A stretch of DNA of 64,000 nucleotides, taken from assembly GCF_009914755.1 (NCBI RefSeq), contig NC_060946.1; one strand, 5' to 3'. Shown one piece after another: positions 18,101 through 54,835 of the stretch; position 1 is the first letter of the stretch, and every line of letters begins with the position of its first letter. The notes beneath the pieces are model-generated. The model was given only the letters and a program-made list of their open reading frames with translations, had not been told where the DNA came from and did not search any database. Made by a program: the position numbers and the translations under genes. The stretch is from the human T2T-CHM13v2.0 reference genome, Homo sapiens.

Positions 18101-18189
18101 TATTGATATTTCTCAAACTGCACTATAATGCTGGTTTGTGTCTTTACTTATTTATAAGCTCCTTGATAATTTGTTTTATATATTTGTAT

Positions 18190-20430
18190 ATTCAAAAAAT
18201 ACTTATGAAGTGTTTACTTTGGGTCAGGAATTATTGAGTGAAGGAAATTGACCAAAACTCTGCCATCATGAAGCTCGCATTCTAACTTAGGGAGACAGAT
18301 AACAGACAATGAGCCACATAAATATGTGAAGTATTGTAAGTTAGATGGTGAAACGTAATCCTGGATGGGGATCAGATAATTTTGATAGGGTAATTTTTAA
18401 CTGGAGAGTCAAGAAATGCCACACAGAGAAGATGGCAATTGGAAGAACAAGGTAGTGAGAACTGCTGAGTCTGGAGCAAAACACACAATTTGGAGTAGTA
18501 GAAGATTCCAGAAGTAACAGAATAGAGGTGAAGAAGTGGGAATTGTGTGGAGTCTTACTTGCTGTTGTAAGGACCTTGGCTATGGTTTGAAGTGAGGTGG
18601 AAAGTTGGTAGGGACCTTAGTTTTCTTTCTAATAAATTATGAATTTTGAATGGTCACTATTAAAGACTCAATAATTTTGCTTTATTACTCTTACAATTGA
18701 CTACAAAATAGTGTATTGAAGAAATGTTAAATTCTAACTTAAACTGATTGAAATAGGTTATCTTTTTATATTTCTCATTACTGAATATCTCATTTTTAAT
18801 TAATTTGAAAGCATTCTAGAATAGTGAGCCAATGCAATTTAGCATAATGCATAACTTATTATTCATCAGATTTAGGTATTTAACTGAAGATGCTAATTAG
18901 AAAAGTAACTTGTTCTGTCGGATGATTTTGATAAAGCTACTTTCAAATGATTATCGCATCCATTGATTTCATATTAAGTTGTGTTTCTGGAACCCAAATT
19001 TAGGCAGTGCTAATGAGTTAACATCTCTAAGTGGATACCTTTTATCTCTACAGTCAAGGATACTTGAAAGTGGAAAAACATATTGGCTTCAAGTCTTGGG
19101 AACTAGGACTTACCAGAAATGTTTTGGTTTGTTTTGTTTCATGGCGGAATTGTCTTCTTGGAAAGATGGTGTTTCCTTCTACCAGGAAAAAATTGATCCT
19201 ATGCTGCTTTACTTTAATGATTTGCTTTTGTCAAAATAGTGTTTTCTTAGGAAAATTAACCTATCACAATATAATGAAAAGAGAAATGCTGAAGACACAA
19301 AATGATGCACATGTTAATATTGAGTAGGAAGCATCAAGGGACATGAGAAGAGAGGGAAGCAAAGAGAGGGAGAAGAGAAATATATAGTACAACACAAATT
19401 AGTAAAAAGGATTAGGATATACATGTAGTCAATAAATGGCTATTTATAGAAAGACTACCAGGCACTAGGGGATATAGCAGTGAAGAAGGCAAAGACACAA
19501 TTGGCTATGCTGTAGTGAGGAGGGAAAGAGGATGAAGACATACAAATACCTAAACAAAGCAATGGTGTGAAGGGCTATAAGGTACACTACTATGAAGACG
19601 ATTACATGTGATAACATGGTTGAGTAAAACTGGCAAGTAGGAAGGCACTGATCAGGCTATAGGTATTTCAGAGAATTTTTCTCTCTGAGGAGGTAATATT
19701 TCATTTGAGAGTTGAGTGGAGACAAATAGGAAGGTACTTTGAAGATCTGGGGTGCTCTGAGTGGAAAGAAGGGCAGATATAAAATTCTGTAATTTAAAAA
19801 GATACCTTGATAGTTTCTTACAAAGAAAAGAAGGTCGGTTTGGCTGGAATGTCCATGAAGGAAGAGCATGGAGAGATATTACATGAGTGCCCTCAGGGAC
19901 CAAATTTAGATCTTATATCAAAGTGTGAATATAAATTAACTACATTGAAAAGTGTATGATGGATATGTGATATGATGAGGTTAGCTCTTAGGAGGGTGTA
20001 CTATTGTGGAAGGGTACAGTAGTGAAGGAAGGGGCTCATTTAGCACCTGTCCAGTTGAAGGATGATGGTGGTTGGGATTATGATTGTAGCAATAAAGTTG
20101 GAGAAAATCAGTTGAGATTGGAAGTTGATTTGAAGATGATTGAATTTACTGAGCAAGAATTATATCAAGGTATTTGGATTTAGGGACATGGGGGATTATG
20201 GTCACTTTTAGCGATATGGCAACATCTTGATGACATGAGGCAGTTTGCAAGTGACAGAGGTGTGGGTAGGTGCATATGTGTGATTGATTTTACATTTTTT
20301 TAATCTTAAATTAAGACGCTAGTTAGAATCCAAGTGGAGACATCAAGTAGGCACTGACAAGTTGACTTGGCTAGAGATGTGAGTTAGATAATCGTACCCT
20401 ATAGATCATGCCTAAAGTCATAAATCTAGG
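18190..20430 (-). mobile_element. Scattered L2 fragments (~18.2-18.6 kb and ~19.4-20.4 kb)
   Basis: Antisense L2 3'-end motifs such as ccaggcactaggggatatagcagtgaa and ttaagacgctagttagaatccaagtggagacatcaagtaggca. Confidence 0.65.
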
Positions 20431-20431
20431 T

Positions 20432-20650
20432 GAGGGGTTGGCAAAATATTATAGCCCATGAGCCAGATCTGGTCTGCTGCCTGTTTTTGTGTAGCTCATG
20501 AGTTATAAGTACGTGTATCATTTATAAGTCTAAAATGTAAAATATAGGGAAATTTTTCAGCAGGGAAAGTTCCATAAATTTGCCTCTTGGCAACACAAAG
20601 CCTGCATTATTTACTGTCTGGCTCTTTGTCAAAAATGTTGCTGACTCCTG
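20432..20650 (+). mobile_element. MER58A-like hAT MITE
   Basis: Termini aggggttggcaaa ... gttgctgactcctg, with an 8-bp TSD atctaggt (20424-20431) / atctagat (20651-20658). Confidence 0.85.
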
Positions 20651-22660
20651 ATCTAGATGAAACCCTGTGGGGAGAGACTGTTGATAGAAAAGAGAGAAGC
20701 ATCATAGTAGAAATTAAAATTATGTCAACTGAAGTGTATAGGGTAGAGAATTTAAGCCTGAGTATAACAGTAAGAGATTAAAATAACAATAAATTCATTA
20801 TCAGCATGATCAATAAAACCTTTGGGGGCAAAAAGGAACTATCTTCATCAGACTTTCACTCACTCATACAAACATCTTAGGCAGGAAATATAACTTGTTT
20901 GAAGATCTGAGATAAGGCTAATGTAGTTTGGACAAAGAAAGCCAATGGGAGGATGACATTGCATCTGGCCAAAGATTTAGGGAAGAGCCAAATACTTCAG
21001 GCTTTTTAAAGTGATCTTTAGATAAAGAGGAAGTCATTAAGGCATTCCAAAGTAGGAACATCAAATCACATCTGATGGGAAAAATCTGGCCATATGTGCG
21101 TCTAGGATGTAAGGAAGCCAACACGGATGTGAAGTTCAAATTGTCCATTGCAAATAATAAAATGAAGGCCCTGGGTAGCCTTGGCAAGGGCAGATTTGGT
21201 ACAAAATCCTTATTGGAATGGACTTAAGCATTAACGGGAATAAGGATCTAGCTGTTGTGTTTGGTGGAATTTTATCAGTCTTTTTGTTGTGTATGATATA
21301 TAGATGGTCAAAATAAAGAACTTCTACATTTTTGGATTTTGTTTTATTTTAATTGAGAGTTGAATTAAAAATAAGAAACTTTTATTTTCAAAATTGGAGA
21401 CTGTGTTTAAAAAGTATAGAGTAGGGCTAGAAAAAAACATAAAACTCTCCTGGTGAGGAGAATGCTAATCATTACTCTAATAATAATAAAATACTTCTCT
21501 CATAACTTAATTTTTTTACTGCTTCATTATTTGTGTATGTATGGGAAGTTGTACCCTAGCCACATGCCAATTCACCTGGTGAACTTGCTCTTCAAAGTGG
21601 CCCAAATATTTCCTTCTATCTTTAGCCTTCCGTGGTTTCTCACATGGACTATTGGCTCTTCCTACTTGAGCCTTCTGGTAGTACCCTGTAAGAGACATGC
21701 TACTCCATGACAACAGGCACCACGCTGTAGGGGAATTGCCATACCTGTCAATCACTATCTCTAGAATGTGGCCTTTCATGAGCCTTGAGATTTCATACTG
21801 TTTCTCTGAGCTGTAACAACATTTATATTGAAAAAATAAACATGTTCTTCTATCTTTAATATTTTATATCTTATAATTTGAATATCTCATTTTCATTATA
21901 CTACTTAGCTGCTAAGTTATGTTATAAAAACAAGTTTTAATTATCTGCAAACACCTTCAAATCTAGTCCTTACCAGTGAAGACTGATGTCTGGTTAGCAT
22001 CTGTTAGGACATTTATTTCCATACAGTATTTATAGCGCACTTTTGTTATTGAAATGATTACTGTTTAGTTGGAAACAATGCACCCTGAGGACTGGAATGA
22101 TAAATGTGTAACTCTTACACAAAGATAATATTTTTAGATTTTTGTATTTAAAATACTGGTTATCAAAAGAAAAAGCCAGATGTTATTTATGTTTCTGCCT
22201 GAGGTACTGAATCTATTTCAAGTCATATTTCTCAGTATTGATATACTTAATTTTGCTGAAATAATAACACACTGTCTTTAGCTACTTTTTTTCTCAGTAT
22301 GTCTCCTTGTCGCTCACCATTTCTGCCTCATCTCACTTCTCATCTTTATTTCTTTTTCTTTGGTCTACTTTTACTTTAGGGATTCTTTCAATTTAGAAGT
22401 TTTCTTGTTTTCTAATAATTACTATTATTCTTGGATATACACAGATATCGTTTTCCATTTCATTTGTGAATCTATCTCAGAGGCATTTTGTGTGTGCCTT
22501 TTACTCATAGCTTCTCAGAAGTCCCTTTTGAGGTTACTGATTTAACATGTCATGTACTATAAGGTTTGCATGGCATGGTGGCAGCTGACCTTCGCCTTTA
22601 CATGGATTGAAATGTTCACTCAACATGGACTGCTAAGATTATTTTTTTCCTTAAATATTT

Positions 22661-25600
22661 GAATCCATTCAATGCCATTCCATTCCATACGAGTCCATTC
22701 CATTCCAATCCATGCTATTCCATTTGAGTCCATTCCATTCCATTCGATTCAAGTCCATTCCATTCAATCCCATTAAATTCTATTCCATTCCATTCCATTC
22801 CATTTGAACCCAATGAATTCTACTGCATTCAATTGAAGTCCATTCCATTCCATTCAGGTGCATTCCCTTCATGTCAATTCCATTCCATTCCATTCGAGTC
22901 CATTCCATTCTATTCCATTCCATTAGAGTCCATTCAATTCCATTCCATCCCATTAGAGTCCATTCCATTCCATTCTATTCCACTCGAGTCGTTTTCGTTC
23001 CTTTCAATTACCTTCGAGACCATTCCATTCCATTGGAGTCCATTCCATTCCCTTCCATTCGATTCCATTCCATTCCATTCCATTCCATTCCTTTCGAGTC
23101 CATTCAGTTCCATTCCATACCATTTGAGTCCATTCCATTCCATTACATTCCATTGCATTAAATTCGAGTCCATTCCATTCCATTCCATTCCATTTCATTC
23201 GAGTCCCTTTCATTCCTTTCCATTCAATTCGAGTCCATTCCTTACCATTACATTCAGTTCGACTTGAGTCCATTCCATTCCATTCCATTCGAATCCATTC
23301 CACTCTATTCCATTCAAGTCAATTCCATTCCATTCCATTCCACTCGAGTCCTTTCCATTCCATTCGAGTCCATTCCATTCCACTCCATTACTTTTTTCCA
23401 TTCCTTTCCTCCATTCCTTTCCATTACAGTCCATTCCTTTGAATTCCATTCCATTCCATTCGTGTCCATTCCATTAGAGTCCATTCCATTTCATGCAATT
23501 ACATTCGTGTCCATTCCATTCCATTCCACTTGAGTCCATTCCATTCCATTCCATTCGAATCCATTCTATTCCATGCCATTCCATTCTATTCCATTTGGGT
23601 CCTTTACAATCCATTCCACTCGAGTCCATTACATACCATTCCATCCAATTCGAGTCCATTCCATTCCATTCCATTCCATTCGAGTCCATTCCATTCCATT
23701 TCACTCGTGTCCATTCCATTCCATTCGAGTCCATTCCATTCCATTCTATTCCATTCAAGTGCATTCCATTCCATTCCAGTCCATTCCATTCCACTCCATT
23801 ACATTCCATTCCTGTCCATTCCATTCCATTCCATTCCATTCGAGCCCATTCCTTTCCATTATATTCCATTCGAATCTAATCCATTCCGTTCCCTTTATTC
23901 CATTCCATTCCATTCCATTCCATTCCATTCCATTCTATTCAAGTGCATTCCATTCCATTCCATTTCATTCCATTCCAATCCATTCCATTTCACTCCATTC
24001 CATTCCGTTCGTGTCCGTTCCATTCCCTTCCATTCGAGCCCATTCCTTTCCATTATATTCCATTCGAGTCTATTCCATTCCATTCCATTCGATACCATTC
24101 CAATCCATTACATTCCATTCGAGTCCATTCCATTGTATTCAAGTCCTTTCCATTCTGTTTCATTCGAGTCCATTCCATTCCACTCCATTCCATTCCACTT
24201 CATTCCATTCCATTCGTGTCCATTCAATTCCATTCCTTTCGAGTACATTCCATTCCATTCCATTCGTGTCCATTCAATTCCATTCCTTTCGAGTACATTC
24301 CATTCCATTCCTTTCTATTCCATTCCAGTCTATTCAATTCCATTCCACTTGAGTCCATTCTGTTCCATTCCATTCGAGTCCATTCCAATCCATTCATTAC
24401 ATTCGAGTCCATTCCATTGCATTCGAGTCCTTTCCATTCCATTTCATTCGTGTCCATTCCATTCCATTCCATTTCATTCGAGTCCCTTTCACTCCATTCC
24501 ATTCCATTCCATTCGAGTCCATTCCTTACCATTACATTCTGTTCGACTCGAGTCCATTCCATTCCATTCCATTCCATTCAAATCCATTCCACTCCATTCC
24601 ATTCGAGTCCATTCCATTCCATTCCATTCCATTCCATTCTAGTCCATTCCATTCCATTCCATTCCATTCCATTCCATTCCATTCCGTTCCATTCCATTCC
24701 ACTCCATTCCATTCCATTCGTGTCCATTCCATTCCATTCCATTCGAGCCCATTCCTTTCCATTATATTCCATTCGAGTGTATTCCATTTCATTCCTCTTT
24801 AGTCCATTCCATTCCATTCCATTCGACTCCATTCCAATCCATTACATTCCATTCGAGTCCATTCCATTTCATTCAAGTCCTTTCCATTCCATTTCATTCG
24901 AGTCCATTCCATTCCACTCCTTTCTATTCAATCCAAGTCCATTCCTTTCCATTCCACTCCAATCCATTCCATTCCATTCCATTCCACTTCCTTCCATTCC
25001 ATTCGTGTCCATTCAATTCCATTCCATTCGAGTACATTTCATTCCATTCCATTCTATTCCATTCGAGTCCATTCTATTCCTTTCCACTTGAGTCCATTCC
25101 GTTCCATTCCATTTGAGTCCATTCCATTCCATTCCATTCCATTCCATTCCATTCCATTCGAATCCATTCCATTGCATTCGAGTCCTTTCCATTCCATTTC
25201 ATTTGAGTCCATTCTATTCCATTCCATTCTATTCCATTCAAGTCCATTCTGTTCCATTCCACTCCATTCCATTCCCTTCTATTCCAGTCCATTCCATTCC
25301 ATCCCATTCCATTCCATACGTTTCATGTCCATTCCATTCCATTCCATTAGCGTCCATTCCATTCCATTCTATTCCAATCGAGTCAATTCCATTCTATTCC
25401 ATTTGAGTCCATTCCATTGCTTTCCATTCAATTACATTCGATGCCATTCCATTCCATTCCATTCCATTCCATTCCATTCCATTCTATTCCATTCCAGTCC
25501 ATATCACTCCACTCCATTCCATTCCATTCCATTCCTTTCGAGTCTATTCAATTCAATTGCTTTCCATTGGAGTCCATTCCATTCCATTCCATTCTTTTCA

Positions 25601-28600
25601 GTTCCATTCTATTTCATTTGTGTCCATTCCATTGCATTCCATTCCATTCGAGGCCATTTCATTCCATTATGTTCTGTTCCATTCTGTTCCATTCCGTTCC
25701 ATTCCATTCCTCTCCATTCCATTCCATTCCATTCCATTCCTCTCCATTCCATTCCATTCCATTCCATTCCTCTCCATTCCATTCCATTCCATTCCATTCC
25801 ATTCCATTCCATTCTTGTCCATTCCATTCCACTTCATTCCATTCGACTCCATTCCATTCTTTTCCATTCGGGTCCATTCCACTCCATTCCATTCGAGTCC
25901 ATTGCATTCTATTTCATTCCATTCGAGTCCATTCCTTTCTATTCCATTCGAGTCAATTCCATTCCATTCCATTCCTGTGAACTCCATTCCATTCCATTCC
26001 ATTTCACTCGAGAGGATTCCTTTCAATTCCATTCCATTGCAGTCCCTTCCATTTCATTCGAGTCCATTCCATTCCATTCCATTCCATTGGAGTCCATTCC
26101 ATTCCATGCCAATCCATACCTTTTGGGTCCATTCCATTCCATTCCATTCCATTCGAGTCCTTTAAATTACATTCCATTCCACTCGATTCCATTACACTCC
26201 ATTCAATTCGAGTCCATTCAATTGCACTCCATTAGATTCTAGTGAATTCCTTTCTATTCCATTTGAATCCGTTCCATTCCATTTGAGACCATACCATTCC
26301 ATTCCATTCCACTGGAGTCCATTTCATTCCATTCGAGTCCATTCTATTCCATTCCATTCCATTTAAGTCCATTCCATTCCATTCCATTTGACACCATCCT
26401 ATCCGAACCCATTCCATTCGAGTCCATTCCATGTCATTCAATTCGAAATCATTCCATTCCATTCCATTCCATTCCATTCGAGTCCATTCCATTTCATATC
26501 ACTCGTGTCCATTCCATTACACTTAATTCCATTCCGGTCCATTCTATTCAATTCCATTCGAGTCAATTCCATTCCATTCCATTTGAGTCCATTAAATTGC
26601 ATTCCATTCCATTCGAGTCCATGCCATTCCATTCCATTCCATTCGAGTCCATTCACTCCCATTCCATTACATTCTATTCCATTCCATTCCATTTCATTCC
26701 ACTCAAGTCTTTTAGATTCCATTCCATTCCTTTCGAATACATTCCATTCCATTCGAGTCCTTTAAATTCCTTTCCATTCGATTCCATTCGATTACTTTCC
26801 ATTCTATTCCATCAGAGTCCATTCCACTAAATTCCAATCTATTCCATTCGAGTCCATTCCTTTCCATTCCATTCAATTCGTGGTTTTTCCATTCCATTGG
26901 AGTCCATTCCATTCCATTCTTTTTAAATTCATTCCATTCCATCCCTTTCTATTCCATTCAAGTCCATCCCAATCCATACCATACCATCCCATTGCATTCC
27001 ATTCCATTCCATTCCATTCCATTCCATTCCATTCCATTCCATTCGTGTCCTTTTCATTCCATTCCATTCGAGTCTGTTGCATTCCAGTCGATTCCAGTCC
27101 ATTTAATTCCTTTCCATTACATTCGAGTCCATTCCACTCCATTGCATTCGACTCCATTCCATTCCATTCCATTCTATTCGACTCCATTCCTTTCTATTCC
27201 ATTCAAGTCAATTCCATTCCATTCGAGTGCATTCCATTCCATTCTATTCCATTCCACTCGAGTCGTTTCTATTCCATTCCATTCCATTCCATTCCATTGC
27301 ATTTCAGTCCTTTACATTCCATTTAATTTGAGTCCTTTCCTTTCCATTCCATTCTATTCCATTCAAGTCCATTCCGTTCCATTCCACTCCATTCCATTCC
27401 CTTCCATTCCATTCCATACCTTTCATGTCCATTCCATTCCATTCGAGTTCATTCCATTCCATTCTATTCCATTCGAGTCCATTCCATTCCATTGCATTAG
27501 AGTCCATACCATTAGATTCCAATCCAGTAAATTCCACTCTATTCCATTCGAGTCCATTCCATTGCATTCCATTCCATTCCATTTGAGTACATTCCATTGC
27601 GTTTGAGTCCATTCCATTCCATTCCAATCCATTCCATTCTATTCCATTCCATTTTATTCCTTTCCATTCCATTCCATTCCATTCGAGTCCATTCCATTTT
27701 ATTCCTTTCCATTCCATTCCATTCCATTCGAGTCCATTCCATTCCATTCGAGTCCATTCCATACCATTACATTCCGTTTGACTCAAATCCATTGAATTCC
27801 ATTCCATTCCATTCGAATCCATTCCACTACATTCCATTTGAGTCCATTCTATTGCATTCCATTCCACTAGAGTCCATTCCATTCCATTCGAGTCCTTTCT
27901 ATTCCATATCATTCGAGTCCATTCCATTCCTTTCCATTCTATTCCATTCAAGTCCATTCCATTCCATTCTATCCCATTCCATTCCATTACAGTCCATTCT
28001 ATTCCATTCCATTCCATTCCTGTCCATTCCATTCCATTCCATTCGAGTCCATTCCGTTCCATTCTATTGCTTTCGAGTCCATTCCATTCCGCTTGAGTCC
28101 ATTGCATTCTATTCCTTTTGAGTTATTCCGTTCCATTCCATTCGACTCCATACATTTCCATTTCATTCGATTCCATTCCCTTCCATTCCATTCCATTCCA
28201 TTCCATTCCATTCCATTCCATTCTATTGCATTCAACTCCATTCCATTCGAGTCCATTCCATTCCATTCGAATCCATTCCATTCCATTCACTTCCATTTGA
28301 GTCCATTCCATTCCATTTCATTAGAGTCAATTCCGTTAGATTCCAATCCAGTAAATTCCATTCTATTCCATTCGAGTCCATTCCATTCCATTCCATTTGC
28401 ATCCACTCCATTCCATTCCATTCTATTCCAATCCATTCTGTTCCATTCTATTCCCTTCCATTCCATTCCATTCCATTCGTGTCCATTCCATTCCCTTCTA
28501 TTAGAGTCCATTCCATTCCATTCGAGTTTATTTCATTCCATTGCATGCCATTCCAGTCCATTCCACTGCATTCCATTTCATTCGAGTCCATTCCATTCCA

Positions 28601-30596
28601 TTCCACTCGAGTTGATTCTATTCCATTGCATTCCTTTCTGGTCCATTCCATTTCATTTGAGTCCGTTCATTCCATTCCATTCCATTCCATTCCATTCCAT
28701 TCCATTCCATTCCATTCCTTTTGGGTACATTCAATTGAACTGCATTACATTCGAGTCCATTCCATCCATTTTATGCCATTCCATTCCATCGAGTCCATTC
28801 CATGCCATTCCATTTGAGTCCATTTCATTCCATTCCATTCCATTCCATTCGAGTTCATTCCATTCAATTCCATTCCATTCCATTCCATTCAAATCCATTC
28901 GGCTCCACTCCATTCGAGTCCTTCCATTCCATTTGAGTCCATTCCATTCCATTCCATTCGAGTCCATTCCCTTCCATTCGAGTTCATTCCATTCCATTCC
29001 ATTCGAATCCATTCGGCTCCACTCCATTCAAGTCCCTTCCATTCCATTCGAGTCCATTCCATTCCATTCCATTCCATTCCAGTCCATTCCATTCCATTCC
29101 CATCCATTCCTTTTGATTCCATTCAATTCCATTCCTTTCCATTCGAGTCCATTAAATTCCATTCCATTCCTTTCGATTCCATTACACTCCATTCCATTCG
29201 AGTCCATTCCATTCCACTCCATTAGATTCGAATCCATTCCATTCTATTCCATTTGAATCCGTTCCTTTCCATTCCATTCCATTTGAGACCATACCATTCC
29301 ATTCCATTCTACTGGAGTCCATTCCATTCCGTTCGAGTCCATTCCACTTCATCGCATTCGAGTCCATTCCATTCCACTCTGTTCCATTTGAGTCCATTCC
29401 TTTCCATTCCATTTGAGTCCATTCCATTCGAGTCCATTCCATTCTATTCCATTCGTGTCCATTCCATTCCACTCGAATCCATTCCATTCCATTCGAGCCA
29501 AATCCATTCCATTATATTCGAGTCCATTCTATTCCATTCCAGTCCATTCGAGTCCATTCCATTCCATTCGAGTCTATTCCATTCCATTGCATGCCATTCG
29601 AGTTCCTTCCCCTGCATTCCATTTCATTCGAGTCCACTCCATTCCATTCAACTTGAGTCCATTCCATTCCATTCCATTCGAGTCCATTCCATTCCATTAC
29701 ATTCTATTCGAATCCATTCCATTGCATTTGAGTCCTTTCCATTCCATTTCATTCGAGTCCATTCCTTTCCATTCCATTCAATTCCATTCAAGTCCATTCT
29801 GTTCCATTCCACTCCATTCCAGTCCATTCCATTCCATCCCCTTCCATTCCATACCTTTCGTGTCCATTCCATTCCATTCCATTTGTGTCCATTCCGTTCC
29901 ATTCTATTCCATTCGAGTCCATTCCATTCCATTAGAGTCCATACCATTAGATTCCAATCCAATAAATTCCACTCTATTCCATTCGAGTCCATTCCATTGC
30001 ATTCCATTCCATTGCATTCGAGTCCATTGCATTCCATTCCAATCCATTCCATTCCATTTTATTCCTTTCCATTCCATTCCATTCATGTCCATTCCATTCC
30101 ATTCGAGTCCATTCCATACCATTACATTCCGTTTGACTCAAATCCATTGAATTCCGTTCAATTCCATTCGAATCCATTCCACTCCATTCCATTCGACTCC
30201 ATTCTATTCCATTCCATTCCACTAGAGTCCATTCCATTCCATTCGAGTCCTTTCTATTCCATGTCATTCGAGTCCATTCCATTCCTTTCCATTCTATTCC
30301 ACTCAAGTCCATTCCTTTCCATTCCATTCCATTCCTTTCCATTCCATTCCTGTCCATTCCATTCCATTCCATTCGAGTCCATTTCATTCCATTCTATTGC
30401 ATTCAAGTCCATTCCATTCCACTTGAGTCCATTCCACTCCATTCGAGTCCATTCCATTCCATTCCATTCGAGTCCATTCCATTCCATTCGACTCCGTTCC
30501 ATTCCATTCCATTGCACTCCACTCCACTCCACTCCACTCCACTCCACTCCACTCCACTCCATTCCATTCCATTCCATTCCATTCCATTCCATTCCA
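22661..30596. repeat. Human satellite 3 (CATTC)n / (GGAAT)n array, ~7.9 kb
   Basis: ATTCC pentamers with frequent ATTCGAGTCC variants. It lacks the GATGAT-containing motifs typical of HSat2. The C-rich strand is + throughout. Confidence 0.95.
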
Positions 30597-30935
30597 GAGG
30601 AGGTTAGGAGTCTGACCAAAGTTTCACCAAGCAAAGAATCTTTCTCAATTTTGATCATTTAAGACCAGTCAAACAAAAGTTACAAAATATATGAAGAAAT
30701 AATCCGTCATGAGGAAGAGTCAATAAAAAAAGAGGGCAAGTTGGATTTCAGGCACTTGAATGATTATATAGCATGCAAAATAATATTACTTAAAGTGCTT
30801 ACACAAATAAAATATGGAACAGTAAGAACAAAAAATAAAAGCATAAAAAAGAATAACATACAGTATCAAGACAAGACAACCTACAGAATGTAAGAAAATA
30901 CTTGCAAATGATATATCTGGTAAGGGACTAATAGC

Positions 30936-31230
30936 TTTTTTTTTTTTTTTAGATGGAGTTTCCATCTTGTCCAAGGCTGGAGTTCAGTGACATGATCTTG
31001 GCTCACTGCAACCTCTGCCTCCCAAATTCAAGCAATTCTCCCTGCCTCAGCCTCCCAAGTTGCTGGGATCACAGGCATGCACCACCACATCCGGCTAATT
31101 TTGTATTTTCAGTAGAGACGGGGTTTCACCAGGTTGTCCAGGCTGGTCTTGAACTTCTGTCCTCTGGTGATTCATTCACCTCAGCCTCCCAAAATGCTGG
31201 GATTACAGGCATGAGCCACTGCACTTGGCC
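30936..31230 (-). mobile_element. AluS
   Basis: Poly-T followed by a full antisense Alu dimer. Confidence 0.9.
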
Positions 31231-31327
31231 ATATCAGTTTTTTTTTTTTTTTTTAAGAGACATGGTCTTGCTTAATATCGAGTATATAAAGAACACTTAC
31301 ACCTCAGAAACTTGACAAAAACAAAGA

Positions 31328-31795
31328 GGCCAGGCACAGTGGCTCATGCCTGTAATCCCAGCACTTTGGGAGACTGAGATGGGAAGATCACTTTAGGCCA
31401 GGAGTTCAAGGCCAGCTTGGTCAACATAGTGAGATCTCCATCTCTAAAAAAGAAAAAAAATAAAAAAAAAAATGGTCAGGAGACGTGGCTCATGCCTGTA
31501 ATCCTAGAACTTTGGAAGGTCAAGTCGGGAGGATCACTGGAGACCAGGAGTTTGGGACCAGCCTGGGCAACATAGCAAGACCTGCCCCCATCTCTATAAA
31601 AATGTACAAAATTATCCAGGCATGCTGATACTCACCTGTAATCCAAGCTACTTGGGAAGCTGAGGCAGGAGAATCTCTTGAACAGAGGAGGCGTTGGTTG
31701 CAGTGGGCTGAGATTGGGCCACTGCACTCCAGCCCGGGGAACAGAGCTGGAGTTCCCCGAGACTCTGTATCAAAAAATAAAAAACAAAAAAAAGA
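31328..31795 (+). mobile_element. Alu monomer followed by a full Alu (J/S), in tandem
   Basis: Two Alu 5' starts (31328, ~31474), each with an A-rich tail. Confidence 0.85.
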
Positions 31796-31844
31796 GAAAA
31801 ACATTTGTTTTTACAGTCAGGTCTCAAGCCTGCAGTCAGAGTCA

Positions 31845-32375
31845 TCCTATTAAAGTCAGCTCATGTCTCCTCTGCTCAATAGTCTCCAATACTTTCCATC
31901 TCATCTCACTCTGAGGAAAAACCAAAATCCTTAAGAGGACCAACAATCACTTTATGATCTGGACCCATCGCCTCTCCGCCCTCATTTGCAACAGCTCCTA
32001 CTTCAGTCTTCCCTAGCCTGTTGGCTCCCCTGCTATTCCTCAAACACCATGGCAGATGCCTGCCTCTGGGACTTGGTGTTCACACTTCTGTATGTCTGAA
32101 ATGTTCCTCCCTCAGATATCCAAATGGCTAGCTTCCTCGCTGCATAAAAGTTGTTACCAAATGGCAGCTCAGTAAAGGCTTCCCTGGCCACCCTATCTAA
32201 ACTTTTACCACTCTCCCACACTCCCAAAAACCACTTCCTAACCTCTTTAACTGCTTCATTTTTTCTCCTTAAGACCACCACCTAACATAATGTATATATT
32301 TTCCCTCTTTGTTTTCTGTTGGTGCCCTTCACCGGAATGTGAGCTCTATGAAGCAGGGGTTAGTGTCTCCACTGC
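31845..32375 (+). mobile_element. L2 3' fragment
   Basis: ctgctattcctcaaacac...cctgcctctgggac...ctccctcagatatccaaatggct...gaatgtgagctctatgaagcaggg. Confidence 0.75.
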
Positions 32376-32891
32376 AGTCTATCTTGCATAGTTACATCCT
32401 TCATTATTTCACTCTTAGCTAAGTTCAAGCTAGTTTACTACTGCTGCATAGAGTTTAAACACTTCCATCAGGAATTCACTATGTTTCTGGATTTATGTGA
32501 CTTTTTTGTTCCCTTCTGTTTATGATATATGATAGACTCTTGCTATTCTTAGAATTCTTTAAGACTCACAAACCCACAAACTGGAATATTTGTAGAGGCT
32601 CCTGGTCATCCCTTGAATCATACATCCAAACCCCAAATTAACTCCTTTCAACATTTATTAAAGCTGCTTTCTTCTTGATCAATTCAGAAGAGTTATTATG
32701 TTGAAAAGTACAAAGCTGCACTGAGATTCAGACAATGGCATGTATCACGCTTGCTCTAGCAGATCATTGATCTTTGTAGGACCGCTTGTAAATTGCAGAT
32801 GCTGAGGAGGCAACATCAAGTATGAGGGGACTCTTGAACCTTTTGTACTAGTGATTATCTTTTCCCCATGTCTTTCTGTCTCTTTACTTAC

Positions 32892-32934
32892 ACTGTTATT
32901 GGAGCTATACCTTCTTCACTGGTAATTTCCACTC
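32892..32934 (-). other. Candidate 43-bp non-coding exon in DHX32 orientation
   Basis: Minus strand reads ggatttag|GAGTGG...AACAGT|gtaagt. The donor is perfect but the polypyrimidine tract is weak. Confidence 0.35.
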
Positions 32935-33550
32935 CTAAATCCAAATATAGTGAGTGACTAATTAATAATTAAGGGCTGAGTAGATAATAAATGAGTCATT
33001 TTCTATCCTTTAGGGATCATATGCTTCTAAGAGCAACATCTGAGAGTATTTTATCATCGACATCATTCATAATCTAATAGGTATTCTGTGTCCTCAAGTT
33101 TTCTCATCCTTCATGCCTCCATTTTTGGGTTTCCCATTTACCTATTCAACCAATACTTGAGGTCCTACTATGTGTGGTAGGGACACAGTTTGTACAGGCA
33201 GGTCTGGTTACGTGAGGCTGAGGGTGGGGTGTGGAAATATAAATTCTTTGACTATGATATGTAGACTCAACCTTACAGACAATTACCTAAAAGAAGGCAA
33301 GGGTGGCTGGTACCTAATTTGAGAGAGACTTTGGTACAAGATGAGTTCAAAGATGAGATAGGGGACAGATCGCAAAATACCTGATCTGCTATGGTAAAAA
33401 AGTTGTGATTACAGTGCCAAGGGTCTAACTTACCTAGTCATTTCTTGATCCAAATTTCATTTTTTACTCTGTTTTTCCTTATAATATTCCTCTTAAATTT
33501 CGGGTTACTCTCTTTTCTTTATTTTACATTGTATGTGTTTGTGTGTGTAT

Positions 33551-34968
<1,418 letters not shown>

Positions 34969-36537
34969 GATAATTAATTCTGTCCTATTCTGGTAGCAGC
35001 TCAGCAAAAGGAAACATCCGTCTATGTTGAAATCTTTGGAACCAAGCTATAACACTATTGCAAACACTCACTGCATATATTCAACACATTTATTTAGATT
35101 TTCACTTATTTCCTCTTGCGGGTTTATGGTAGACTTCCTAAAGGCAAGATTAATTTCTGAGCCAGCTTTGCAACTCCTGCAAAATAAGATACAGGGCTGT
35201 GCACAAACTATGTGATCAATAAATATCTGCTGAACTCATAAACAATATACTTATAATCTATTATTACAATGTTTAGAAAAAAAGAAAGTTAATGAGGTAT
35301 TATGAGTGAATAATAACGTCTTCAGAATAAAGGACTATTATTTTTTGGAGAGTGGGATCATTGGTCCAATACTCCATGTCAACTCTGCTGCTGGTTTGTG
35401 GCAAGGTAAAGAGTTTGCACCAGAATGTAAATCAACTAACTGCTTCCTACACTGAAGAGGTCTTGCTATTTTTAAAAAGTCAGCTGAACAGTAATCAGTA
35501 TGTTTAGTGACATCGCCTATTTACATTCTGGCACAAGCTCCGGATCTCACTGCAAATCAGTAAGTCTGCACTGGCCCTGATCTGCAGGCCACACTTTTCA
35601 GAATCCTGGTTCCATGCTACTACTATAGTTGGACTAACAATAACAATGATGATAATTTTACCAATTAGCATTTATAGAGTGATTATTGCATACCAGATGC
35701 TATGTTCAGCACTTAAGCACTTTATATGGATTATTTCATTTAAACTCTTAAGGACCTCATGAGGGTTTACTTTATTATTTCCATTTTTCAAATGAGGAAA
35801 TGTAAACCTTCAGAGGTTTAATTTATACAGCTTCTAGAAGATCATCTGTGGTAGAGCAGGTGCTTCAAGTCAGGCAGTATGATCTCTTCTTAACCTCAGT
35901 TAAGTGTATAGTGTATATGCTTAACCATATATCCATACTGCTTCCTGACTATATTACATATTGCTTCCAGACTACATTTTAAAAAATAGACTCACGTTGC
36001 ATCACTGGGGGTTGAAGAAATACTTGACACTAATGGAGATGTCAGGAAGAGAGGTCTGGAAGAAATACCATAAAACTGAAAAACATGGTATAGATAGATT
36101 TGTAAATCTTTTTTATAGATTTTAAAAACATTTCTAATACAAAGTTACAGTCAAATATTTAATACACTTTATCTCTCAAGCACGGCATGGTTTAATTGAA
36201 ACAATGGACCTAATCATTACTAGGACTTTTAGAAGGTCACTTCTTTGTTTGCCTTTGTTTTAATAGCCTCAAATCTCCCAAAAATATATCCTATTTGGTT
36301 TCCAGTATCAATTTAAAGCCTTTCTGGGAAAAGATAAGGTCAAAATTCAAAATTTATTTTAAAATCCTTATTTCTAGACTTGTAACGAGTTGATTGCTTT
36401 GATTTTAAGTAAGCAAATCTAGTTAATTAGCTTTTTTTTTTTAAAAAAGGTCCATTTTTAACTCAATGTTTGTTCATATCAGATACAACCAGCCTTGTAT
36501 TGACAATTGGTTGAATATACAATATTATATTAATAAC

Positions 36538-36581
36538 AACAGATACTACAGTTGATCTTAGCCAAAAGGCCGAGAAGTGAT
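36538..36581 (-). pseudogene. 3'-truncated U2 snRNA retropseudogene (U2 nt 1-44)
   Basis: The reverse complement ATCACTTCTCGGCCTTTTGGCTAAGATCAACTGTAGTATCTGTT matches the U2 5' end with 2 mismatches. It is flanked by direct repeats gaatatacaatatt (36513-36526) / gaatatacagtatt (36582-36595). Confidence 0.93.
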
Positions 36582-36697
36582 GAATATACAGTATTGAATA
36601 TTGTATTGCATATTGGTTGAATAACCAACCCTGCACAGTCAAATTTTTTTAAAAGAATCCTTACATTCTAATGGTACTTAAAAAAATTTTAGCCTTT

Positions 36698-37441
36698 GGG
36701 CAGTGGCTCATGCCTGTAATCCAATCCTTTTGGGAGGCCAAGTGGGGAGGATAATTTGAGCCCAGGAGTTTGAGACTAGCCTGGGCAACACAGTGAGACC
36801 CTGTCTCTATTAAAAAAACATATTTTTAAATGTATATACAGAAAGTTCCCCTGAGCTCAATCAATGTTTATGTATAGTATTAATATACCACTCCCCACAA
36901 ATAAGTTTCTAAGTCAAAGGTATTGTCAGAAGTTCAAATGACTGGACCACTCAGTGCTTTGTGATATTATTTTGATGATTTTTTTGACTGCATTCCATTC
37001 CAAAAACTAATTTACTCTGAGTAGATGCAGAGTTAATAAAGTATGCAAAAATACTAATCTGGCTTATTTAAGTAGTCTAGTGACATATCTGAGAAAAATT
37101 TTGTGTGAGATTCAATAAAAGCTGAGATTTAAAGAACAGGTTACTGCTGGTCTCCCCAAGTTAACATACTTTACCTGAGACATACACAAAATTAACTTTT
37201 ATCCATCTCTCTCTCTCTCTCTCTTTTTTTTAAAGTATTTGCTTGAGGCATAATCATAATCAACTTCTAAAGTTACATTTTACTTGATTTGTTGTCCCAA
37301 ATGTAGACAAGAAAAACCATAAATAGCCACAGGCACAGTGGCTCATGCCTGGAATCCCAGCACTTTGGAAGGCTGAGGCTGGAGGAGCCCAGGAGTTCCA
37401 GACCAGCCTAGGCAACATAGCAAGACTCTGTATCTAAAAAA
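36698..37441 (+). mobile_element. Two free Alu left monomers (36698-36818, 37325-37441)
   Basis: gtggctcatgcct...gagcccaggagtt...gaccctgtctc followed by an A tail; no right arm. Confidence 0.8.
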
Positions 37442-38980
37442 TCTGTTTAAAAATGTTTTAAAAATATTTTTAAACATAAATATCAAGATTTCTGTTGTTA
37501 ACAAAGTAATGGGTAGTCATTTTACATGAACTTTAATAAAACAATAATAGATGAACTGTGTTGTGCGTTCTACGGTGGCTAGAGGAAAATATAACCATTT
37601 TGGGGAATGCCAATGCATGAACTCCTCAGGAGTAGGCACTCTTCCATTAATCCTCCCAGATTTTCAGCTCCCTTTTCTGACCATTGGTCCTTAGTCTCCG
37701 CAGGTTCTTCCACCAACAGATCCTCCCCACAATATAAAATGTGCATACTTCAGGGCTCTATCCTTTACCCTCTTATTCCACATAATATCCCTGGAGAAAA
37801 TCATCACGTTTTAACTTCAATCACTAAATGCTTAATCCAAATTTGTATCTTCATCTCAGACTTTTTCCCTTTAGTTCCAGCCCCACATGTCCAACTACTA
37901 CTAATTATGGGACCTCCCAACATATATGACAGGCTTCTCAAACTGAACACATCTACCCCACTTCTTAAACTCCTCAACATTTTTTTTTCTTCTTTAGACT
38001 TCAATGAATAACAGAATGATCCACTCTATCACCCCACTGTCATCCCTGGCGTCTCCTTCCTCATCTCTTGTATCACCAAGATCTGCTAATTCTACCTTTT
38101 TTAGTGGCCCCTCCTTCTTATTCCCACCGTCGCTCTCCTAGTTCTCTTCATTTCTTCACTGAGCTTCAGCAACATCTCCAATTTTTTTGTCTCTCATTTA
38201 GGCTCTCTACCAATCTGTCATTTGAGTGTTGCCAGTGATCCTTTCCAAATGCAAAACTGCTCCAGTCACTGACCCAAATCCTCCTTATTACCTTTAAGGA
38301 AAATAAACTCATGGTCCTTAGGTTCCTTCTGATTTGGCCACATTTGCCTTTCTGGCCTTACTTCCTCCCATTTTCTGCTAATACACATGAAGAAGTATTC
38401 TCCAGTTCAGCCAGAATAAACCACGGCTTAGTTGTTCTCCCGGCCTTCGTGCCTCAGCCCAGGCTGTTCTGCTTCAGAAGCACCTGGTCATTTCCTGTTC
38501 ACCCTTTATGACATGCAATTCCAGAGCCCAGGAAGTACCTAAGACATTGTGAATGTGGTATCAATATCTGCTCTATGCCTAAGTCAATAACAGCCCTTTA
38601 TATTAAAAAAGTTCATTACGACATACAAGATATTTTCATTCATAATCTATAATCACATGTATCTTGATTCTCACAACTAGACTATCAGACAACGATTGCA
38701 GGTTTTATTATCCCAAGTTATCAATGACAAAATAATAGTTTCTGTTTTTCCAAAGGGTCAAAGCTAGAAATTAATGCAATGAACCCAAACTAAAGGTTTG
38801 ACCTCTCTATTATTACCCTACTTAAATTATCAGGTACACAATGAAGCCCACCGTGTGCTAAAAGCAACACAGAAGAAGCGTAAGTCATGCACTTAGCTCC
38901 AAACATATTTAATCTAGTCAGAGGTACAAGACCCATCCATATGAGATAAAATTCTATACGAAAGCATCCTACAGGGCTAA

Positions 38981-39411
<431 letters not shown>

Positions 39412-42081
39412 AGTCTCCTTTAGACTGTGGACGAGTAAAGGGCTGAGAGATAGACATTCCGTGTGAGTGCAACAAATTGAATGTAGACCATGACAAGTTT
39501 GGAGAACAAAGAGGAAAACAACAAAAATAGAAATTTGATTGTTTTCCACTTTTGACCGAACTCCTTAAGAGTCTCAGAAAGTATCAGATAGAGAAAAAAG
39601 TACCCTCACTCTGGTAAAGAAAACAAAAACCAAGAAAAACCCTAAAACCAACAAAAACAAAAATGAAAACTTCCTTCAACTTACCACAGTAAGGCTAGAA
39701 GACAGAACTATTAATAACATGTTCATTTGCTACATTTTTTATCAACCTATTTGCATTAAATAATGTTAACCTCCCACTAAAGTTATTTCTACGTTGAATT
39801 CTAGGTAGTCAAGAGATTTAAATAAGAAAAAGACAACATCTGTTTCTTCATTGTTACTTTGTTATTCCCGATCCGTAATGCTTCAGTTTGCTACATTTAG
39901 CTAAACATCAGCAAAGTAAACAATAATGTAACTATTCTATCTAGTAATGAGCTTGGAGACTTAAAAAAATATATAGAACTTTATTCCTTTTCATTTGACC
40001 ACTAATAACATACTGAACATGCCGGTGAAAAGAAATAAAACACAATGGTAGAAAACTCCAAAAAGGTACAATCAGTGTCTTTACCATTCATCCCCCCCCC
40101 CCCATCTCATTAGCAACTTTCTGATCTCGGGTGTTTTCTCCAATAGTAAAGTGTATCCCTATATCCAAAGCAATTTCTCTGAAGCCCTTCTCACTCGTTC
40201 AACAAACGTTTAACAAGTACATTGCACTAGGTGATAGAGGAAGAGAAACTGAATATTGTCCCTGCCTCAGACATTTCAGTGCCTTTACACCTCGCTTCCA
40301 CTCCTAACCAGTCTTCTTCCACAGGTACCCTGTCCGCTAAAATCAAATGTTGCTTTTCACAGTTGCCTTTACTTGTCACCTAAAGTATTTCAATTCAAAA
40401 TTTCCTCAAAGTCAACTTCACAGCTGCTGATAAAATAATCATTCTATATGATTACAAAGTGTTTCACCAATACATATCCCCATTTTTTCCAAACTTAAAA
40501 CTTCTTCAGTCCTTACTACTTTAGCATAGAGACCTGAACTGTTGTTTCTTCTTTTTAAAAAAATACTAATGTAATCCTTTACTGTTTGAGCAGACTTAAT
40601 CCTACCTTTTCTTTTGTCAATAAATGCCAGGTGTTTTTTAAATCACTATCTTGTCACTTTTGATTATGATATACTGATCACTCTATTTGTATCTTGAATG
40701 AAAAGATCTCTTTGTGATTTTGCTAATGATATGTAAACTAGAACTTGAGAACCACTGGATACAGAAGTACTGCTGATCTTTAGATACTTTCTGTCTAAAA
40801 ATGAAGCCCCTGTCTCCAAATTTCAGGAACAGGGAGTTAAGATTCCATGAAGTGTTTACTTTCCACCCTTAATTTATTACCTTAATACTTCAGCTTGAGA
40901 ATTATGTGTTCTGTATATATCACGCTGCTTGTCAATATCCACACGTAAACCTTCTTGTTTTGACAATTAATCTGAAAAAGTCCCCATATAGTCTAAGAGG
41001 GGGAAAACCTAATTTGGAAGAATATAATAAATGTCAGTTTCCATCACAGAATATATGCTTCTCAAGTTCAATTAACCTCTCAATGATTCCCTTTCTAAGA
41101 GGAAAGTAATTCTCCTTAGTGTCCTTGTCATCCATGGAGTGGAAATCTTTATACTGGCCAGATTAGTAATCACTTGCATGACCCCCAAAACGGCTCTTCC
41201 TTCCATTTCCCTCAAGTACTGTCTGGAGCAGCGGTTGGAATTAATAGAGGGGCCATAATCTCCAGACCTGAGTACCAAATGAATCCTGCAGCCCCCACAC
41301 CCTTAATGCCCCTGCACTTTCTTGCTTATCCTTTTTCTCTCCTCTCCATTTTTCTTTCCTCCTTCCGGTGTTCCGGAACCTATGATACTCTCCCGGTTGT
41401 TTGAATTTTTACAACCTACCAGATAATAATCCCTTGTGATCCTCAAAGCTTCCTTAAAGCAAACCCTGCATCACTGTGTTTTAAAACCAGTATGAAAGAC
41501 TATTTTGTGAGATAATGTTACATTGTTTCACAGCCCTACAAAGTTTGGCCACAAAACGTGTGGGCAGATTCCGTAACTCAACCGGAAATGCGAAGGACTG
41601 AAACAAATCAACACACACAAAACGAAGCCAGTGACAAAGATCCAACCCGGGCCCCCTGCCTGAAATGGGACACGGGGATGACGGCAAAGCCGTGCTCTTG
41701 GCTCTCGCGATTCAGGAGGCGCTCCTGGCTCACTGGGGACGACAGCGACGACGGCAGCGGCTCGCATTGCTCCACGCTTCCCGTCAGGGGGGTTCGAGGG
41801 ACCACCCCAGGCCCGGCCCATGCCCGGGCTCTGAGGGAGCCCCTGGTGCGAGGGCTGCCCGCAGGGCTCCGTCCTCCCGCTGAGGCGTGGCTCCCGGAGC
41901 AGGAGGCGCGGAGGCCGCCCTCGGCGTTTCGGAGTCGGGGCGGGGAACGTCCACGGCCAACTGCGGGCAGGGGACCCCCAGCAGGCTACAACAGGTGCGC
42001 CAGGGCGGCCCACCCGGCTCGGGGCGCGCCCGCCCCTGCGCCGACCCCCGACCCCTTCCGCCGCCGGGGCCCAGCTGTTAC

Positions 42082-42340
42082 CTGCAGCGGCGCCTCCCGA
42101 GTCCCGGGAGGGCGGCCCAGGGCCGGCGCCTTACCCGCGGGCAGGCCCACTCGCCCGACGGACGCCGTGGGTCGGCGACGTCGGGGCACAGGTCCTGCCA
42201 GGCCGCGGGGGCCGCCAGGGAGGGCGCGACCGCCTGACCGGGCTTCAGGGGCAGCGTCCTCAGCCGGTGACCTGGCCGCTACCCTCACTCAGTGTCCCCG
42301 GCGACGCGCGGATCCTCACGCGCTCCCTCACTTCCTGCGG
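42082..42340 (-). pseudogene. DHX32: Probable non-coding upstream exon of DHX32 (duplicated copy)
   Basis: Two minus-strand donors (cgg|gtaagg ending at 42135; cag|gtaaca ending at 42082) diverge from FANK1 exon 1. DHX32 is head-to-head with FANK1 at 10q26 (recall). No DHX32 coding exon is found before the satellite. Confidence 0.6.
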
Positions 42341-42409: not shown

Positions 42410-42496
42410 TAGCGACGCCGGACCTGGCTGAGAGGCGTTAGGAGCCCGGGCGTTCGCCCGCGGAGGCCGGGGAGCAGCCGACCATGGAGCCCCAGA
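42410..42496 (+). pseudogene. FANK1: FANK1 exon 1 copy (5' UTR plus 13 coding nt); the rest of the window appears to be intron-1-derived
   Basis: ccgaccATGGAGCCCCAGA|gtaagg gives a strong Kozak context, MEPQ(K) matching the recalled FANK1 N-terminus, and a phase-1 donor at 42497. The upstream X-box fits a ciliary gene. The exon start is approximate and exon 2 is not seen. Confidence 0.8.
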
Positions 42497-43709
42497 GTAA
42501 GGGAGGCCCGGACTGGAGCTGGGACCGGGGCAGGTGACCGGGCTAGGGCTCCCCGGGAACGAGTGTGGGCGCCCCACGCGCGACTCCGCAGGTTTCAACG
42601 CTCGGACACGGAAATACGGTTTGCGTCTCCTAGCACTTTTCTCTCTTGGAGAGGGGAGAAAGGGGCTACATCCTGCCAAGTCTGTATGGTTGGGCCGCCG
42701 GCACCCGAAAGTCCGCGCTGGGGGCCGGGAGCGACTGCAGAGCCCCGAGCTATGGGTGGGGGAGGGCTCAGCGACCCTAGCTTTCACCTTCCTGAAACTT
42801 CGCGCAGACAGTTCCATTTACTCCTCCTCCTACTCATGATTTTAGTTTGGTAGTTTGGTTCATTAATTGTAAGTAGCCCATTTTTCTTCTAAAATGTCAG
42901 CAATTAAACACGTCCGAGCCTGGGTCTTGTATTTATTAGAGACCCCGTCTTACTCCACGTCCCCCGCCCCACACCCCTAGTCTGCGACTTGAAGGAGAGA
43001 GAGAAAAAAAGAGCTTTGTCCAAGTGTATTTGATTCATTCTTAGGGGTTCTACAAGTTAGGACACTCAAAAAAATGTTTGTGATCTCTTTTTCTGTTTTC
43101 CCATGTTGCTTTCGATGTATGGCAAACGTTGTGCAGTTTTGAGTTATCAGATCTAACACGAGCTCTAACTTAACATTTTTGTTGTTGTTTTTACCTTTCC
43201 AGGGACTTTGTTTCAAGGCCTTTCTTTCTCTGCCACGCCTAAGCTGTCTTATTGTTCCTTTTGTTCTCAAAATAAGGGGAGTGTTTTGTATGGAGACTTA
43301 AAATATCTAAAACCTTCATAGAAGGATGCAGTTTGACTCTCAAACCAAGAGGTCTTATCTTGTACAATTTCAGAAATGAAGAACTCAGACCAAATCTATT
43401 CTCTGGGGAAAATGCTGGCATTTTTAAAGGTCATTCTTTTTCCACCAAGAAAGTTTCAAATACTTTTCCTTTTAACTCATTTGCTGAGGAGAAAGCTTGC
43501 AAGTTGTGACTTATAGTTGCTTGATAGATTTTGTACAGTATTTGTCATTTGCATTTACAGCTCTTTGGATTCTACATTTTTTTAACCTAGTAAAAGAAAT
43601 TTAGCATGCGACAAGGGTAAAATTTTTGTTTTATGTCAAACTGATGGCAGGCTGTGTGTATTCCCACCTTAGAGAAGTGAGTTGAAATGTATCTTTTAAA
43701 AACAACAAC

Positions 43710-46950
<3,241 letters not shown>

Positions 46951-46952
46951 TT

Positions 46953-47293
<341 letters not shown>

Positions 47294-47958: not shown

Positions 47959-48590
<632 letters not shown>

Positions 48591-49664: not shown

Positions 49665-50170
<506 letters not shown>

Positions 50171-52649: not shown

Positions 52650-54835
<2,186 letters not shown>

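What the first reader, a model, noticed from the sequence alone, without database searches (positions are those of the whole stretch)
22661..42340. Captured DHX32-direction promoter aims at HSat3 and would transcribe the G-rich (GGAAU)n strand
The duplicated CpG island keeps its CpGs, an ETS site and two minus-strand donors, but its gene body is cut after ~11.5 kb and replaced by HSat3. The minus strand of the array is (GGAAT)n, the polarity of the SatIII RNAs of nuclear stress bodies. A borrowed housekeeping-type promoter could provide a stress-independent source of satellite RNA, and read-through would be antisense to the ROBO2 copy. Activity cannot be shown from sequence alone.
Basis: partly seen in the sequence, partly recalled or inferred. 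Interest (0 to 1): 0.7.

Follow-up and report, generated by a model that had tools for sequence, protein, structure and literature searches.

The report
Copied promoter facing a satellite array
A copy of the human DHX32/FANK1 promoter sits 11.7 kb from a small satellite array and faces its GGAAU strand, but the same layout occurs ten times on the acrocentric short arms and this copy is losing CpGs, so it is likely a partly methylated passenger of an old duplication rather than a working source of satellite RNA.

Summary
The geometry is real, with corrections. A pure HSat3 array (22664-30596; 677 GGAAT on minus, 0 on plus) lies downstream of the DHX32 side of a copied DHX32/FANK1 CpG island; the ETS site and both minus donors are intact. 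But chr10 homology ends at 31811, not 30596: a 1.2-kb chr13q piece intervenes, and no DHX32 coding exon was copied. All 10 acrocentric copies share this one junction, so the polarity is one old event, a coin flip. 'Keeps its CpGs' is weak: CpG transitions 11/280 versus 1/280 on chr10 (p=0.006), not different from methylated flank (8/152, p=0.62). Against full silencing: this copy's clade decays less than the other clade, and published collapsed RRBS values (37-46%) imply only about half methylation across copies. The array lacks heat-shock elements and the 9q12 SatIII terminator; the ROBO2 piece has no promoter. Verdict: likely a dampened passenger (0.6); satellite read-through about 0.15. Side finding: an L1 found only in this autosomal copy shares its 3' junction with the L1 at the Y-chromosome PAR2 boundary, so this window likely preserves the pre-PAR2 layout.

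The parts
6928..22659 (+). 3p12 duplicon: ROBO2 5' fragment (exon 2 plus intron), without exon 1 or promoter
   Evidence: matches chr3:75,987,477 onward to chr3:76,002,795; the middle part was not aligned to chr3
10168..10276 (+). copy of ROBO2 long-isoform exon 2 (ATG to donor)
   Evidence: ORF, donor GTAAGT; gene name from recall of the peptide plus the chr3 match
22664..30596 (-). HSat3 array, 7933 bp, (GGAAT)n on minus; 140 GGACT, 0 CAAC(C/A)CGAGT, 0 inverted HSE pairs, 5 minus-strand AATAAA (first at 30058)
30597..31810 (+). 1.2-kb Alu-rich piece from chr13:18.99 Mb between the satellite and the chr10 duplicon
   Evidence: 93% over 1227 columns
31811..42129 (-). copied DHX32 5' intron; cut 5.06 kb short of the DHX32 ATG
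   Evidence: breakpoint chr10:126,768,362; ATG chr10:126,763,299
36445..36581 (-). U2 snRNA pseudogene inside the copied intron
   Evidence: Rfam RF00004, 66.5 bits
41650..42780 (.). copied bidirectional DHX32/FANK1 CpG island; 12- and 23-bp deletions relative to chr10
42077..42084 (-). minus-strand donor CAG|GTAAC
   Evidence: kept in 11 of 11
42129..42137 (-). minus-strand donor CGG|GTAAGG
42330..42337 (-). ETS core CAGGAAGT
   Evidence: identical in 11 of 11
42484..42496 (+). coding part of FANK1 exon 1 copy
   Evidence: name from recall and from the chr10 match
43703..46939 (+). 5'-truncated L1 with an inserted Alu (45668-45964), present in this copy only among the 10 autosomal copies; 3' junction shared with the Y PAR2 boundary
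46940..64000 (+). copied FANK1 intron 1; closest relative is the chrY copy next to PAR2
   Evidence: 46940-49600 and 54600-64000 searched

Best explanation
This is one of ten acrocentric copies of a mosaic duplication (HSat3 + 1.2 kb of 13q + 10q26 DHX32/FANK1 island), and its promoter copy is likely a partly methylated, dampened passenger that makes little or no satellite RNA. Shown: one satellite junction shared by all ten copies, no DHX32 coding exon, one-sided CpG loss in the copies but not on chr10. Inferred: the 10q26 block joined the 13q piece and HSat3 once, the module then spread by exchange between short arms in two clades, and the island, now among satellites, has been methylated in the germ line for part of its history. 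Any polymerase that does start would face an 11.7-kb intron-like stretch with 18 AATAAA and no native downstream exon.
For: Same junction base and polarity in 10 of 10 copies. Two clades, 4 and 6 copies, about 3.3% from chr10. Island CpG transitions: window 11/280, chr10 1/280 (p=0.006); window island vs own flank 8/152 p=0.62; chr10 island vs flank 10/152 p=0.0002. Pairwise, without any inferred state: 11 of 138 vs 2 of 122. Human tissue reads piled on chr10 show 37-46% methylation against 1-5% in chimpanzee (PMC6132288 Table 1, passage) and 6-50% across adjacent fragments in neutrophils (PMC4661471, passages), which needs methylated copies. No RefSeq transcript model at the island (hub table). 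HSat3 is H3K9me3-rich (10.1101/2021.05.26.443420, passages) and satellite PRO-seq is low (10.1101/2021.07.12.451456, passages).
Against: The window's clade decays less: CpG/non-CpG ratio 2.6-3.2 against 5.4-8.7 in the other clade; clade union 17/280 vs flank 20/152, p=0.018. The core 42341-42500 has 0 CpG transitions of 16 in the 3 of 4 clade members tabulated. Strictly private changes give 2/195 CpG vs 5/525 non-CpG, no excess. My RRBS simulation says the published 37-46% needs only 43-58% mean methylation over ten copies, and is also met if the other clade is 76-105% methylated and this clade open. CpG decay reports the germ line, not somatic cells. No expression or methylation data for this copy were available.
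Confidence: 0.6

Rival explanations
1. The island is open in this clade and fires, but the RNA is cut at intronic poly(A) sites or degraded before 30.6 kb, so no satellite RNA results.
For: Lower CpG decay in the clade and an intact core; RRBS mixture allows an open clade; 18 minus-strand AATAAA before the array; the acceptor candidates ahead of the DHX32 coding exon lie in the lost part.
Against: The same hexamers exist on chr10 in similar number, where the long DHX32 form would have to pass them; CpG loss is significant against chr10.
Confidence: 0.2
2. One reading: the island is open in at least some cells and polymerase reads into the array, giving low-level GGAAU RNA without HSF1.
For: Motifs intact, polarity right, no AATAAA in the last 1.2 kb before the array; array has no HSE of its own, so any RNA would need an outside promoter; low G-rich SatIII RNA exists in unstressed HeLa cells (PMC2241877, passages); RRBS mixture does not exclude it.
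Against: No direct data; CpG decay; no annotated transcript; first AATAAA 540 bp into the array; the basal HeLa RNA was amplified with primers designed on terminator-bearing SatIII sequences, and this array has no such terminator.
Confidence: 0.15
3. The arrangement is kept for a function, such as antisense control of ROBO2 or seeding of nucleolus-side RNA bodies.
For: ETS site and donors are unchanged in 11 of 11 sequences; module sits on all five short arms.
Against: At about 3.5% divergence an 8-base motif is expected to survive by chance in most copies, and the copies are not independent; the ROBO2 piece is promoterless and flanks only 4 of 10 copies; FANK1 ATG is lost in 1 of 10.
Confidence: 0.05

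Closest known systems
FANK1-promoter segmental duplication of 10q26 (42.4 kb, GRCh38 chr10:125,885,884-125,928,375; PMC5668427, passages)
   Same: This is one of those copies; that paper already placed promoter variants on chr22 and counted at least 4 other locations.
   Different: Here 10 island-bearing copies are resolved, each joined through a 13q piece to HSat3; that layout is not in the passages I read.
Proximal-junction and pericentromeric duplications of acrocentric short arms (PMC12767296, passages)
   Same: Patchwork of satellites and duplicated, mostly non-coding or pseudogene sequence, variable in copy number.
   Different: The paper does not mention FANK1 or ROBO2 (0 hits).
Stress-induced SatIII/HSat3 lncRNA of nuclear stress bodies (PMC2241877, PMC10505914, passages)
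   Same: GGAAU polarity, pentamer repeat.
   Different: Known source is megabase arrays driven by HSF1 or TonEBP from within; this array is 7.9 kb, with 0 HSE pairs, 0 CAAC(C/A)CGAGT terminators, and GGACTCGAAT variants instead.
TERRA and SCA31 RNA: repeat RNA made by read-through from unique flanking DNA or a host intron (PMC9032817, PMC10505914, passages)
   Different: Those RNAs are observed; here the start site is a truncated gene copy 11.7 kb away and no RNA is shown.

Membership tests
HSat3 | tandem CATTC/GGAAT pentamer, single polarity | tested here: met
   784 CATTC, 0 GAATG in 7933 bp
HSat3 | poor in the HSat2 words CATTCGATTC and GATGATTC (criterion recalled) | tested here: met
   4 and 0
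SatIII template of nuclear stress bodies | (GGAAT)n CAAC(C/A)CGAGT terminator formula (PMC2241877) | tested here: not met
   0 terminators on the minus strand
SatIII template of nuclear stress bodies | HSE-like inverted nGAAn units in the array | tested here: not met
   0 TTCnnGAA, 0 GAAnnTTC; imperfect sites not scored
SatIII template of nuclear stress bodies | G-rich strand transcribed | not testable with these tools
   polarity fits; no RNA data
10q26 FANK1/DHX32 segmental duplication | collinear high identity to chr10 from the DHX32 5' intron into FANK1 intron 1 | tested here: met
   95-97% over 31811-43712, 93-95% beyond the L1
Active CpG-island promoter | GC > 0.55 and CpG o/e > 0.65 over 500 bp or more (criterion recalled) | tested here: met
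   GC 0.725, o/e 0.82, 1130 bp
Active CpG-island promoter | no excess CpG transition (unmethylated in germ line) | tested here: not met
   11/280 vs 7/573 non-CpG, p=0.012; chr10 1/280; excess is smaller than in the other clade
Active CpG-island promoter | unmethylated, accessible and initiating in cells | not testable with these tools
   collapsed RRBS data are ambiguous for this copy
Coding DHX32 paralogue | contains the ATG exon | tested here: not met
   ATG lies 5.06 kb beyond the breakpoint

The most novel reading that the evidence does not exclude
The four copies of this clade (chr22:6.49, chr22:11.19, chr21:7.97, chr13:10.95 Mb) keep open DHX32-side promoters and read through into 8-9.5-kb HSat3 arrays, giving an HSF1-independent GGAAU RNA with about 140 perfect GGACU m6A sites per pass, made next to the nucleolus: a defined, mappable start site for basal human satellite RNA.
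Probability: 0.15. Interest if true: 0.7.

Novelty: new member of a known kind. Interest (0 to 1): 0.38.

Why it matters
If active, it would give basal HSat3 RNA a named promoter and a unique junction to assay, which the field lacks. If silent, as is more likely, it still matters in two ways: the ten copies probably explain reports that this promoter is human-specifically hypermethylated or highly variable between people, and the L1 in this copy ties a chr22 short-arm duplication to the breakpoint that created the human-specific PAR2.

Tried and rejected
Unique or selected polarity: rejected, one junction in 10 of 10 copies. Direct DHX32-HSat3 fusion: rejected, 13q piece between. Truncated DHX32 protein: rejected, no ATG exon. 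HSF1 drive from the array: no perfect HSE pairs. GpC as a control for CpG loss is confounded by overlap with CpG and was not used; non-CpG C/G sites were used instead. Branch-by-branch counts are too small to date the methylation: 4-5 CpG changes per branch, and the shared-branch count moved from 4 to 0 with the choice of references. The bacterial promoter scan does not apply. Splice-acceptor search was a crude pyrimidine rule: 3 candidates in the copy (40227, 36324, 31444), untested. Length of HSat3 in the six other-clade copies was not measured beyond about 6 kb, and chr3 was matched by coordinates only. Searches for the layout in print and for a chr22 link to PAR2 (term look-ups) found neither; most subscription papers and all supplements were unseen, and PMC420362 was not held.
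Full report
Observation. The array runs 22664-30596 and is pure in polarity: 784 CATTC and 0 GAATG on plus, 677 GGAAT on minus. The island at about 41650-42780 has GC 0.725 and CpG o/e 0.82. A search of the whole assembly scored 11 of 11 candidates as matches: chr10:126.778 Mb at 93% and ten copies on chr13, 14, 15, 21 and 22 short arms. The ETS core at 42330 and both minus-strand donors are present in all 11. The neutrophil paper treats this island as the annotated DHX32 promoter and first intron (PMC4661471, figure legend). The G-rich strand is the one found in SatIII RNA (PMC2241877 and PMC10505914, passages).

Anatomy. Homology to chr10 stops at 31811 (chr10:126,768,362), just after an Alu tail; 30597-31810 matches chr13:18,992,527-18,993,733 at 93%. 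The DHX32 ATG is at chr10:126,763,299 (peptide recognised from recall), 5.06 kb past the break, so no coding exon was copied. On the far side of the array is a 3p12 piece from about 6928 to 22659 with a ROBO2 exon-2 copy at 10168-10276 on plus (name from recall). It starts about 3.2 kb ahead of that exon, so exon 1 and the ROBO2 promoter, which by recall lie about 30 kb upstream, are missing. This 3p12 piece adjoins the array in 4 of the 10 copies. All 9 other copies were fetched across the junction, and 9 of 9 meet HSat3 at the same base and polarity as the window; five copies point toward the telomere and five toward the centromere. The polarity is therefore one event with even odds. The tree has two well supported clades: A (window, chr21:7.97, chr13:10.95, chr22:11.19) and B (six copies), each 3.2-3.9% from chr10 over 9.1 kb.

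Is the island protected? CpG transitions per CpG position on the window lineage are 11/280 in the island, against 7/573 at other C/G sites (p=0.012) and 8/152 at flank CpGs (p=0.62); on chr10 they are 1/280 in the island and 10/152 in the flank (p=0.0002); window versus chr10 island p=0.006. A plain pairwise count agrees: 11 of 138 chr10 CpGs read TG or CA here, 2 of 122 the other way. At the flank rate 125 of 140 CpGs would still remain, so retention is no sign of protection. Against full silencing: clade A ratios are 2.6-3.2, clade B 5.4-8.7; the clade A union is below its flank rate (17/280 vs 20/152, p=0.018); strictly private changes show no excess (2/195 vs 5/525); the core 42341-42500 has no CpG transition in the three clade A copies tabulated, and 4 of 5 window-only CpG transitions in one comparison lie on the L1 side, 42532-42703 (post hoc, small numbers). 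Published RRBS mapped to hg19 gives 37-46% at this island in human cortex and 1-5% in chimpanzee (PMC6132288, table and methods passages). My simulation of MspI reads with at most two mismatches assigns 16-22% of CpG calls to chr10, 36-38% to clade A and 42-46% to clade B, so the copies need 43-58% mean methylation; clade B alone at 76-105% would also do (assumes CHM13 copy number, 3% on chr10, no PCR bias, no unplaced contigs, guessed read lengths). The copies as a group are methylated; this copy's somatic state is open to test.

If it fired. Between 42300 and the array there are 18 minus-strand AATAAA, about as many as in the matching chr10 intron, so they do not by themselves block read-through; the 13q piece has none; the array has 5, the first at 30058. 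Reaching the ROBO2 piece means 19.7 kb and 23 such hexamers. The array has no inverted HSE pair and no CAAC(C/A)CGAGT terminator, but 140 GGACT; the review notes GGACU is the better m6A motif (PMC10505914, passage). It would be an HSat3 RNA of a different make from the 9q12 type. RefSeq shows no transcript here (hub table), a weak negative since unspliced or multi-mapped RNA would not be modelled. Satellite PRO-seq is the lowest among repeats (10.1101/2021.07.12.451456, passages); low basal G-rich RNA exists in HeLa (PMC2241877).

Mechanism, committed. Shown: mosaic module, one junction, ten copies, no coding exon, one-sided CpG loss. Inferred: spread by short-arm exchange, partial germ-line methylation, dampened promoter, little or no satellite RNA (0.6). 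Rivals: open but terminating early (0.2), read-through into the array (0.15), selected function (0.05).

Known versus new. The duplication of the FANK1 promoter, including a chr22 copy, is in print (PMC5668427, passages; its supplementary figure on the copies was not seen). Short-arm patchworks of satellite and duplications are described (PMC12767296, passages). I did not find the promoter-to-HSat3 layout; the library lacks most subscription papers.

Side finding. A 5'-truncated L1 at about 43703-46939 with a target-site duplication is absent from chr10 and from 9 of 9 other autosomal copies. ChrY holds an islandless copy of the FANK1 intron that is this window's closest relative (98% over 9.4 kb; 98.75% over 801 bp against 94-97% for six others). 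Y shares the L1's (AAC)n tail and 3' junction with the window, then inside the L1 switches to near identity with X between about Y:62,123,346 and 62,123,570, and continues in the longer Xq28 L1. PAR2 is given as starting at Y:62,122,809 (PMC13252187, passage) and is human-specific (PMC11168930, PMC7488140, passages). That PAR2 arose by recombination between L1 elements is recalled from older work that I could not read. The likely reading is that this window keeps the unrecombined form of the Y-side L1 and of what lay distal to it, island included, before Xq28 replaced it. Direction of transfer between chr22p and Yq is unknown, and Y has 16 private differences in the last 500 bp of the L1, more than the flank predicts. 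I found no mention of this link or the term look-ups; supplements of the Y papers were not seen.

Papers seen as passages only: PMC6132288, PMC12144706 (nothing bearing on the copies), PMC4661471, PMC10505914, PMC5668427, PMC12767296, 10.1101/2021.05.26.443420, PMC2241877, PMC4222609, 10.1101/2022.12.01.518724, PMC11168930, PMC7488140, 10.1101/2021.07.12.451456, PMC9032817, PMC13252187.

Noticed in passing
window 43703-46939; L030 (C24:62,119,001-62,128,000); L031 (C23:153,922,001-153,930,000): The L1 found only in this autosomal copy shares tail and 3' junction with the L1 at the Y PAR2 boundary; Y switches to X sequence inside it. The window likely preserves the pre-PAR2 layout of distal Yq.
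   Followed up: yes
window 41650-42780 and nine other copies: The reported human-specific hypermethylation of the FANK1/DHX32 promoter (PMC6132288) and its top rank for variability between people (PMC4661471) are probably due to reads from the ten copies piling on chr10; simulation gives chr10 only 16-22% of the calls.
   Followed up: partly
L011/L013 and L020/L022/L024: chr21:7.97 and chr13:10.95 Mb copies are 100.0% identical over 9.1 kb; chr13:9.90, chr14:3.38 and chr15:5.26 Mb copies 99.9-100%: recent exchange between short arms. The window copy is 98.2% from its nearest autosomal kin.
   Followed up: partly
window 5000-6600: GC-rich repeat of GGCTTTTTGCCCCCGCC-like units (166 CpG, 40 CAAAAAG on minus), at a duplication junction 3.6 kb ahead of the ROBO2 exon-2 copy; window 1-6300 recurs at many pericentromeres. 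Could be a stand-in promoter for the ROBO2 piece; untested. A 330-bp piece matching chr19:35.47 Mb follows it.
   Followed up: no
window 22664-30596, minus: 140 GGACT words: an RNA from this array would carry many perfect m6A motifs, unlike plain GGAAU repeats. Internal duplication spacings of about 2.4 and 3.0 kb.
   Followed up: partly
window 46400-46860 against C24: Y has 16 private differences in about 500 bp of the L1 3' end, more than its flank divergence predicts; possible conversion from a third L1.
   Followed up: no
window 10543-11627: 1.1-kb AT-rich (ATATGAATAT-type) tandem array just after the ROBO2 exon-2 copy.
   Followed up: no
window 54605-55375: A 770-bp stretch has an inverted second copy about 12 kb further on, in every duplicate and on chr10.
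   Followed up: no
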